From NCBI RefSeq assembly GCF_009914755.1, contig NC_060930.1: a stretch of DNA of 64,000 bases. The stretch is one strand, 5' to 3'. The notes beneath the pieces are model-generated. The model was not told the DNA's origin. It saw only the letters and a program-made list of their open reading frames with translations, and made no database searches. Source of the stretch: the human T2T-CHM13v2.0 reference genome, Homo sapiens. The position numbers were made by a program, and so were the translations under genes. Positions 6,401 through 9,400 of this stretch are shown here, in pieces (the stretch's first letter is position 1; the number at the start of each line of letters is the position of its first letter).

Positions 6401-9400
6401 ATGACAGGATGAAATTCACACATAACAATATTAACCTTAAATGAAAATGGGTTAAATGCTCCAATTAAAAGACACAGACTGGCATTTCGGATAAACAGTC
6501 AAGACCCATCAGTGTGCTGTATTCAGGAGACCCATCTCACATGCAGAGACACACATAAGCTCAAAATAAAGGGATGGAGGAAGATCTACCAAGCAAATGG
6601 AAAACAAAGGTAGGGGTTGCAATCCTAGTCTCTGATAAAACAGACTTTAAACCAACAAAGATCAAAAGAGACAAAGAAGGCCATTACATAATGGTAAAGG
6701 GATCAATTCAACAAGAAGAGCTAACTATCCTAAATATATATGCACCCAATACAGGAGCACCCAGATTCATAAAGCAAGTCCTTAGAGATCCACAAAGAGA
6801 TTTAGATTCCTACACAATAATAATGAGAGACTTTAACACCCCACTGTCAACATTAGACAGATCAACGAGACAGAAAGTTAACAAAGATATCCAGGAATTG
6901 AACTCAGCTCTGCACCAAGCGGACCTAAAGACAGCTACAGAATTCTCCACCCCAAATCAACAGAATATACGTTCTTCTCAGCACCACATCGCACTTATTC
7001 CAAAACTGACCACACAGTTGGAAGTAAAGCACTCCTCAGCAAATGTAAAAGAACAGAAATTATGAGAAACTGTCTCTCAGACCACAGTGCAATCAAATTA
7101 GAAGTCAGGATTAAGAAACTCACTCAAAACCGCTCAACTACATGGAAACTGAACAACCTGCTCCTGAATGAATACTGGGTACATAACAAAATGAAGGCAG
7201 AAATAAAGATGTTCTTTGAAACCAATGATAACAAAGACACAACATACCAGGATCTCTGGGACACATTTAAAGCAGTGTGTAGAGGGAAATTTATAGCACT
7301 AAATGCCCACAAGAAAAAGCAGGAAAGATCTAAAATTGACACCCTAACATCACAATTAAAAGAACTAGATAAGCAAGAGCAAACATATTCAAAAGCTAGC
7401 AGAAGGCAAGAAATAGCTAAGATCAGAGCAGAACTGAAAGAGATAGAGACACAAAAACCCTTCAAAAAATCAATGAATCCAGGAGCTGGTTTTCTGAAAA
7501 GATCGACAAAATTGATAGACCACTATCAAGACTAATAAAGAAGAAAAGAGAAGAATCAAATAGATGCAATAAAAAATGATACAGGAGATATCACCACCGA
7601 TCCCACAGAAATACAAACTACCATCAGAGAATACTATAAACACCTCTACGCAAATAAACTAGAAAATCTAGAAGAAATGGATAAATTCCTGGACACATAT
7701 ACACTCCCAAGACTAAACCAGGAAGAAGTTGAATCCCTGAATACACCAATAACAGGCTCTGAAATGGAGGCAATAATTAATAGCCTACCAACCAAAAAAA
7801 GTCCAGGACCAGATGGATTCACAGCCAAATTCTACCAGAGGTACAAGGAGAAGCTGGTACCATTCCTTCTGAAAGTATTCCTATCAATAGAAAAAGAAGG
7901 AATCCTCCCTAACTCGTTTTATGAGGCCAGCATCATCCTGATACCAAAGCCTGGCAGAGACACAATAAAAAAAGAGAATTTTAGACCAATATCCCTGATG
8001 AACATCGATGCAAAAATCCTCAATAAAATACTGGCAAACCAAATCCAGCAGCACATCAAAAAGCTTATCCACTATGATCAAGTGGGCTTCATCCCTGGGA
8101 TGGAAGGCTGGTTCAACATACACAAATCAATAAATGTAATCCAGCATATAAACAGAACCAAAGACAAAAACCACATGATTATCTCAATAGATGCAAAAAA
8201 AGGCCTTTGACAAAATTCAACAACCCTTCATGCTAAAAACTCTCAATAAATTAGGTATTGATGGGACATATCTCAAAATAATGACAGCTATTTATGACAA
8301 ACCTACAGCTAATATACTGAATGGGCAAAAACTGGAAGCATTCCCTTTGAAAACTGGCACAAGTCAGGGATGCCCTCTCTTACCACTCCTGTTCAACATG
8401 TTATTGGAAGTTCTGGCCAGGACAATCAGGCAAGAGAAATAAATAAAGGGTATTCAATTAGGAAATGAGGAAGTCAAATTGTCCCTGTTTGCAGATGACA
8501 TGATTGTATATTTAGAAAACCCCACCGTCTCAGCCCAAAATCTCTTTAAGCTGATAAGCAACTTCAGCAAAGTCTCAGGATACAAAGTCAATGTGCAAAA
8601 ATCACAAGCATTCCTATACACCATTAACAGACAAACAGAGAGCCAAATCATGAGTGAACTCCCATTCACAATTGCTACAAAGAGAATAAAATACCTAGGA
8701 ATCCAACTTACAAGGGATGTAAAGGACCTCTTCAAGGAGAACTACAAAGCACTGCTCAACGAAATAAAAGAGGACACAAACAAATGGAAGAACACTTCAT
8801 GCTCATGGATAGGAAGAATCAATATTTTGAAAATGGCCATACTGCCTAAAGTAATTTATAGATTCAATGCCATCCCCATCAAGCTACCAATGACTTTCTT
8901 CACAGAATTGGAAAAAACTACTTTAAAGTTCATATGGAACCAAAAAAGAGCTGACATTGCCAAGAGAATCCTAAGTCAAAAGAACAAAGCTGGAGGCATC
9001 ATGCTACCTGACTTCAAATTATATTACAAGGCTCAGTAACCAAAACAGCATGGTACTGGTACCAAAACAGAGATATAGACCAATGGAACAGAACAGAGCC
9101 CTCAGAAATCATACCACACATCTACAACCATCTGGTCTTTGACAAACATGACAAAAACAAGCAATGGGGAAAGGATTCCCTATTTAATAAATGGTGCTGG
9201 GAAAACTGGCTAGCCATATGTAGAAAGCTGAAACTGGATCCCTTCCTTACACCTTATACAAAAATTAATTCAAGATGGGTTAAAGACTTACATGTTAGAC
9301 CTAAAACCATAAAAACCCTAGAAGAAAACCTAGGCGATACCATTCAGGACATAGGCATGTGCAAGGACTTCATGTCTAAAACACCAAAAGCAATGGCAAC

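What the first reader, a model, noticed from the sequence alone, without database searches (positions are those of the whole stretch)
7100..9155. L1-A and the distant inverted L1-C share about 19 derived variants, including frameshifts and a stop
Seen (A / C positions): gaagt 7102/22966; ctagataag 7367/22700; 1-bp deletion acaaaaaccc 7451/22612; 2-bp deletion aaagagaagaatc 7545/22515; aatacacc 7741/22323; gaaatggag 7761/22300; tggaagg 8101/21962; atgacagc 8281/21780; TAA stop 8440/21620; ggaaatgag 8461/21595; cccaccgtc 8521/21535; caaagtc 8583/21475; ccattaac 8621/21438; acaaacatgac 9142/20910. Their 3'UTRs look like different subfamilies and some patches (8140-8270) differ. 'Derived' is judged against recalled consensus. 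Inference: an ancient multi-kb conversion or double crossover across a loop of more than 10 kb, making L1-A a three-way mosaic.
Basis: partly seen in the sequence, partly recalled or inferred. Interest (0 to 1): 0.75.

Follow-up and report, generated by a model that had tools for sequence, protein, structure and literature searches.

The report
Neighbouring dead L1s swapped sequence patches
Two dead jumping-gene (L1) copies that face each other 12-16 kb apart on human chromosome 6 share about 20 rare mutations, in combinations that three genome-wide searches found in no other copy, most likely because one was repeatedly patched from the other by gene conversion, a known process seen here in unusual detail.

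Summary
L1-A (+) and the older, inverted L1-C (-) share 18 substitutions carried by at most 3 of 59 other L1 copies, plus two small deletions, at A 7104-9148. Three multi-variant patterns each hit only A and C genome-wide, so a dispersed dead lineage is unlikely. A and C differ by 5.3% where 7.5% is expected (null SD 0.24). It is not one tract: seven strong subfamily markers inside still differ, and one continuous tract fits 9.5-18 log units worse than short patches. There is no sign of a reciprocal swap or a net inversion. One 289-bp block (8404-8692) has only 3 differences (scan P 0.001) and looks young. Where direction is readable, C is the donor. A also carries 461 bp identical to the adjacent L1-B, so 'three-way mosaic' holds. 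Verdict: non-allelic gene conversion between inverted neighbours, a known process. Timing needs ape orthologues.

The parts
4313..10432 (+). L1-A, near full-length dead L1 of the 'middle' age group (L1PA6-like by recalled 3'UTR signature, not tested against a consensus); recipient of C-type and B-type sequence
4285..4300 (+). left copy of the 16-bp target-site duplication of A
11296..11311 (+). right copy of A's target-site duplication; matching copies argue against a net inversion breakpoint in A
7098..9148 (+). zone of A that shares rare and C-lineage alleles with C, in patches
8404..8692 (+). continuous, young-looking A=C block: 2 substitutions and 1 indel in 289 bp, C-lineage alleles
7847..8265 (+). 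mostly unconverted gap: A keeps middle-group alleles and C old-group alleles; one shared rare site (8103)
9338..9798 (+). 461 bp of A identical to L1-B (about 11961-12421, - strand); young B-type alleles continue to 10137 at about 3% divergence
10433..11290 (+). A2: second, tandem 3' end inside A's target-site duplication; shares two alleles with C (10473, 10554) absent from 55 of 55 panel copies
11324..17345 (-). L1-B, full-length, younger (12.7 rare alleles per kb against 29-32 for A and C), with its own duplication at 11314-11323 and 17346-17355; lies inside the A-C loop
19650..23422 (-). L1-C, 5'-truncated, 'old' group (L1PA7-like by recalled signature); no target-site duplication; flanks collinear in an older dispersed repeat with a gap of about 12 bp
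20913..22972 (-). part of C homologous to A 7098-9148; likely donor (young block at 21372-21659)

Best explanation
L1-A and L1-C share about 20 rare variants in scattered patches, most likely because A was repaired from its inverted neighbour C by non-allelic gene conversion on several occasions. Shown: the shared variants, the patchiness, the 289-bp near-identical block, intact insertion junctions and a 461-bp A=B tract. Inferred: A inserted tail-to-tail about 2.3 kb from the older C, before B arrived. The two formed a 3.8-kb inverted repeat. Breaks in A were mended by copying short tracts (tens to a few hundred bases) from C, probably by looping back on the same or the sister chromatid, without crossover. 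Each tract then drifted to fixation, at least in this haplotype. The 8404-8692 tract would be the latest (roughly 3-5 million years, wide range, scaled from rare-allele loads) and so would span the present 13-kb loop with B inside. B later did the same to A's 3' part. No function is implied: both copies carry the same ORF2 stop.
For: Three multi-variant patterns each match only A and C genome-wide. The four-point distance deficit is 2.2 points against a null SD of 0.24 and a maximum of 0.67 in 119 pairs; there is none in the flank 6650-7090 (6.0 expected, 6.1 seen). In trees, A and C are sisters in 7090-9160 but sit in different groups in 6650-7090. C-lineage alleles appear in A at 7098, 7439, 8433, 8466, 8624, 8677 and 8850. 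Divergence is uneven: 0.7% in 8404-8692 against 4.2-5.5% (non-CpG) elsewhere. Unshared differences lie 1-2 bases from 4 of 15 shared sites, which points to mutation after older exchanges. A shows the same behaviour with B in two tracts of different divergence. Conversion between nearby Alus within about 10 kb is in print (PMC6598467, PMC8230782, passages).
Against: The number and age of events are not resolved. The HMM prefers patches of 3-20 bp and accepts ages from about 2% to 60% of C's age, which fits one patchily repaired heteroduplex as well. Such patches are shorter than the 55-290 bp mean human tracts quoted in PMC4404656. With strong markers only, 150-bp patches are 3.4 log units worse than 20-bp ones. 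Identical runs around shared sites are no longer than random (32 against 30 bp), and shared and unshared markers are not significantly clustered (runs test P 0.25). The HMM models C-to-A only. The panel is 58 copies chosen by similarity to A or C. No second haplotype or ape sequence was available.
Confidence: 0.6

Rival explanations
1. One event: A and C paired over 2 kb or more (strand invasion or a fold-back stem), and the long mismatched duplex was corrected by short-patch repair. This left a continuous core (8404-8692) and scattered 10-30 bp patches either side.
For: The HMM optimum is at 10-20 bp patches covering 20-30% of sites, and a young age matching the core is within about 1-2 log units of the optimum. 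Shared sites lie 10-20 bp from unconverted markers (7370/7386, 8103/8084, A2 9698/9688 in A numbering). Patchy repair on this scale is described in mismatch-repair-deficient Drosophila (PMC4154643, passages), and clustered discontinuous tracts in humans (PMC4404656, passages).
Against: 4 of 15 shared sites have an unshared difference 1-2 bases away (about 3.6 expected by chance), whereas 40 of 42 marker pairs under 21 bp apart were co-repaired in the fly study. The A2-C sharing needs a different pairing register.
Confidence: 0.22
2. One ancient continuous 2-kb conversion of A by C, later partly overwritten by other L1s.
For: Shared variants run from 7104 to 9148, and most segments are 4-5.5% diverged, as an old event would give. 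Multi-kb tracts occur between Y-palindrome arms (PMC3723533, passages).
Against: Seven strong markers inside remain discordant. A carries no B-specific allele at any such site in 6650-9337, so B did not overwrite it. No donor better than 97% was found for 7967-8280 among 40 scored of 1740 candidates. The long-tract model is 9.5-18 log units worse.
Confidence: 0.08
3. Inversion toggling: the DNA between A and C inverted and re-inverted with different crossover points. Ordinary recombination with an unswapped haplotype then left the swapped piece on one side only.
For: Inverted L1PA pairs do cause inversions in humans and chimpanzees (PMC2603318, passages). The orientation is right.
Against: A's duplication matches on both sides and C's flanks are collinear. 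No reciprocal site is seen in the interval. Seven or eight patches would need as many cycles.
Confidence: 0.06
4. Common dead source: A and C descend from one defective, trans-mobilised L1 lineage, or the matches are recurrent mutation.
For: Single variants do recur (376 places for the stop motif; 8 for stop plus 8466).
Against: Three combinations have exactly two genomic hits. A and C belong to different groups outside the interval. Chance sharing averages 0.5 per pair.
Confidence: 0.03

Closest known systems
Non-allelic gene conversion between neighbouring Alu elements (Aleshin and Zhi 2010, as summarised in PMC6598467 and PMC8230782; the original was not held)
   Same: One-way copying between nearby dispersed repeats, detected as shared non-diagnostic mutations, strongest within about 10 kb.
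   Different: Here the partners are multi-kb L1s about 6-8% diverged, homologous points are 12-16 kb apart today, and the footprint is a patchwork over 2 kb or more.
Arm-to-arm conversion in Y-chromosome palindromes (PMC3723533)
   Same: Inverted repeats; conversion far outweighs inversion.
   Different: Palindrome arms are over 99.9% identical and steadily homogenised; A and C are independent insertions, only partly homogenised.
L1 recombination-mediated inversions (PMC2603318)
   Same: Inverted L1PA pair at a similar distance (mean human L1 event 14 kb).
   Different: Those leave chimeric elements with mismatched target-site duplications; A's match and C's flanks are collinear.
Complex, discontinuous non-crossover tracts and short-patch repair (PMC4404656, PMC4154643)
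   Same: Converted and unconverted sites alternate over short distances.
   Different: Those are allelic, single-meiosis observations; this is ectopic, fixed in one assembly, and may sum several events.

Membership tests
Non-allelic gene conversion between retrotransposon copies | Two independent insertions share non-diagnostic mutations beyond chance | tested here: met
Non-allelic gene conversion between retrotransposon copies | Sharing is confined to internal tracts; the flanking parts keep separate ancestries | tested here: met
Non-allelic gene conversion between retrotransposon copies | Non-reciprocal transfer (donor unchanged) | tested here: met
   C-lineage alleles are in both copies and no site in the interval has A old with C middle; some A-to-C transfer is not excluded
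Non-allelic gene conversion between retrotransposon copies | Unconverted ancestral state seen at the orthologous site in another species or haplotype | not testable with these tools
   only the window's own genome is held
L1 recombination-mediated inversion | Chimeric elements with non-matching target-site duplications and inverted flanks | tested here: not met
Single continuous conversion tract | All subfamily markers inside the tract concordant | tested here: not met
Short-patch repair of one long heteroduplex | Independent repair beyond about 20 bp, co-repair of close neighbours, one date for all patches | tested here: inconclusive
   short patches favoured; close neighbours not depleted; date untestable
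Trans-mobilised defective L1 lineage | Unlinked copies carry the same variant sets | tested here: not met
L1PA6 (A), L1PA7 (C), L1PA3 (B) | Match to subfamily consensus diagnostic sites | not tested
   labels are recalled; only relative groups were inferred from trees

The most novel reading that the evidence does not exclude
This is the fossil of a single 2-kb-plus duplex formed between two L1s about 7% diverged, across a 12-16 kb loop, that escaped heteroduplex rejection in the ape germ line and was resolved by 10-30 bp short-patch repair. Such L1-to-L1 conversion is common enough (a second ~1 kb case turned up among 58 sampled copies) to blur L1 dating and subfamily trees genome-wide.
Probability: 0.2. 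Interest if true: 0.6.

Novelty: new member of a known kind. Interest (0 to 1): 0.33.

Why it matters
The locus itself has no evident function. Its value is as a readable record that old, diverged L1 copies keep exchanging sequence with inverted neighbours without rearranging the chromosome. One element took sequence from two neighbours at what look like several times. Divergence-based ages and subfamily labels of clustered L1s can therefore mislead. The site also offers a clean test, with ape assemblies, of whether patchy conversion comes from many short events or one patchily repaired duplex.

Tried and rejected
Chance recurrence and a dispersed dead lineage: rejected. B as the source of A's middle-type alleles in 6650-9337: rejected. 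A third donor for A 7967-8280, which has no rare alleles of its own: none found, best hits 97%. Net inversion at A or C: rejected. Exchange at the moment of A's insertion: about 13 log units worse. Two-way exchange: not shown. C's middle-type bases at 6897, 7134 and 7182 may be native, since 10 of the first 100 listed of 523 old-type copies carry the 7134 base (counted by eye). GC bias among 17 shared substitutions: none evident. Whole-genome pair scans could not be run, so the genome-wide tests are exact-pattern counts and 40-hit lists. L045 was left out of group statistics as a near-duplicate of L044, and L030 out of the null sets. Literature: ten full-text searches found no paper on this locus; SUPT3H + inversion + LINE-1 gave 0. 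Porubsky 2022, Aleshin and Zhi 2010 and a paper sought for L1 ages were not held. The ape-genome supplement had no readable text. 12 of 18 supplements of PMC6748972 and 2 of PMC2603318 showed no entry for this locus. Unseen inversion tables may list it.

Full report
Layout. Self-comparison and reading of the window show L1-A on the + strand from 4313. Its 3' end at 10432 is followed by a second 3' end (A2, 10433-11290), and the whole is bracketed by a 16-bp duplication at 4285-4300 and 11296-11311. L1-B (11324-17345, -) is full-length with its own duplication. L1-C (19650-23422, -) is 5'-truncated and has no duplication. Its two flanks match adjacent, same-strand positions in at least five other copies of an older repeat, with about 12 bp missing. 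A and C therefore face each other tail-to-tail with B between them, and neither shows a net inversion. Trees of 58 fetched human L1 copies give old, middle and young groups. In 6650-7090 C falls with the old group and A with the middle group; B is young. The names L1PA7, L1PA6 and L1PA3 are recalled from 3'UTR signatures and were not tested. PMC7449397 (passages) dates L1Pa7-L1Pa3 to 30-10 million years ago.

The observation. A and C share 18 substitutions carried by at most 3 of 59 other copies, and two deletions in slippage-prone runs. Among 1830 pairs the mean number of rare shared substitutions is 0.53, and A-C have 15. Segment by segment the excess holds at 7091-7846 (P 0.0007), 8276-8403 (P 1e-5), 8404-8692 (P 0.02) and 8693-9160 (P 1e-4). 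It does not hold at 6650-7090, 7847-8275 or 9161-9337. A four-point test expects 7.5% difference and finds 5.3%; the null over 119 pairs has SD 0.24 and maximum 0.67. Exact patterns joining two to four shared variants have two hits each in 3.1 Gb, A and C. Against this, single variants recur, C leads the next relative by only 0.24 points over the whole interval, and the long-query search missed C among its 40 scored candidates.

Shape of the exchange. It is a patchwork. Seven strong old-versus-middle markers inside the interval still differ (7244, 7847, 8012, 8147, 8265, 9099, 9112), and weaker ones add more. A has C-lineage bases at 7098, 7439, 8433, 8466, 8624, 8677 and 8850, so C is the donor where this can be read. 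No marker in the interval shows the reverse swap. C's middle-type bases at 6897, 7134 and 7182 could be A-to-C transfer or native; about a tenth of old-type copies have the 7134 base. B is not the source of A's unconverted stretches. The block 8404-8692 has 3 differences in 289 bp against 41 in 8276-9098 (scan P 0.001); other segments differ by 4.2-5.5% at non-CpG sites. A two-state HMM on the rest prefers 10-20 bp patches over 20-30% of sites and rejects a 2-kb tract by 18 log units, or 9.5 with strong markers only. It leaves the age open from about 2% to 60% of C's age. The model is simple, one-directional and depends on my marker list.

Mechanism. Shown: shared variants, patchiness, intact junctions. 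Inferred: non-crossover repair of A from C. B has 12.7 rare alleles per kb against 29-32 for A and C, so it likely came later. Without it, the gap between A's end and C's end is 2.3 kb, and homologous points lie 5.7-9.8 kb apart instead of 11.8-15.9 kb. I favour several short events (0.6) over one patchily repaired duplex (0.22) for three reasons. Divergence is uneven. Unshared differences sit 1-2 bases from 4 of 15 shared sites. And A shows two tracts of different divergence with B: 461 identical bases at 9338-9798 and about 3% at 9799-10137 with young alleles. A2 also shares two otherwise unseen alleles with C. Scaling by rare-allele load puts the 289-bp block at roughly 3-5 million years (95% interval of divergence 0.1-2.5%); this is an inference.

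Comparison with what is known. Conversion between neighbouring Alus within about 10 kb is established (PMC6598467, PMC8230782; passages). Inverted repeats favour conversion over inversion on the Y (PMC3723533; passages). Inverted L1 pairs cause inversions recognised by mismatched duplications (PMC2603318; passages), which is not the case here. Discontinuous tracts and short-patch repair are described in PMC4404656 and PMC4154643 (passages). That L1-to-L1 conversion has been reported before is recalled, not retrieved. PMC12350158 (passages) had nothing on this locus, and the other papers were seen only as search listings. Ten searches found no paper on this locus, but key inversion tables could not be seen.

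Verdict. The feature is real and carefully observed, and the process is known. A second L1 pair with a ~1 kb tract at about 1% divergence turned up among the 58 sampled copies, which suggests such cases are not rare. Interest 0.33.

Noticed in passing
L029 and L030 (G000:C2:1770481 and C2:2212148, same strand, about 440 kb apart): Two L1s share 14 rare alleles and differ by only 0.7-1.7% over about 900 bp (A-equivalent 8000-8900) but by 4-10% on either side; only the L1 parts align. Looks like a second, long-range conversion tract.
   Followed up: partly
window 9338-10137 and 11620-12421: A is identical to inverted B over 461 bp and carries B-type young alleles to 10137 at about 3% divergence: likely one very recent and one older B-to-A conversion.
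   Followed up: partly
window 9576-10432 and 10433-11290: The last ~860 bp of A are doubled in tandem inside one target-site duplication, joined at an A-rich stretch; the copies differ by 6-8%. Origin not resolved.
   Followed up: partly
window 7967-8303: A has no rare alleles of its own over about 340 bp, where roughly 6-10 would be expected; no donor found. C is similarly clean at A-equivalent 6899-7089.
   Followed up: partly
window 19649/23423: C has no target-site duplication; about 12 bp of the older host repeat are missing at the insertion point.
   Followed up: yes
L044 and L045 (G000:C16:16.70 Mb and 18.60 Mb): Near-duplicate L1s with 42 shared rare alleles, likely part of a segmental duplication.
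   Followed up: no
window 2100-3520, 26997-28387, 30500-31850: Further, older L1 3' fragments; the first two share 10 alleles rare in the panel, probably because their older group is not represented in it.
   Followed up: no
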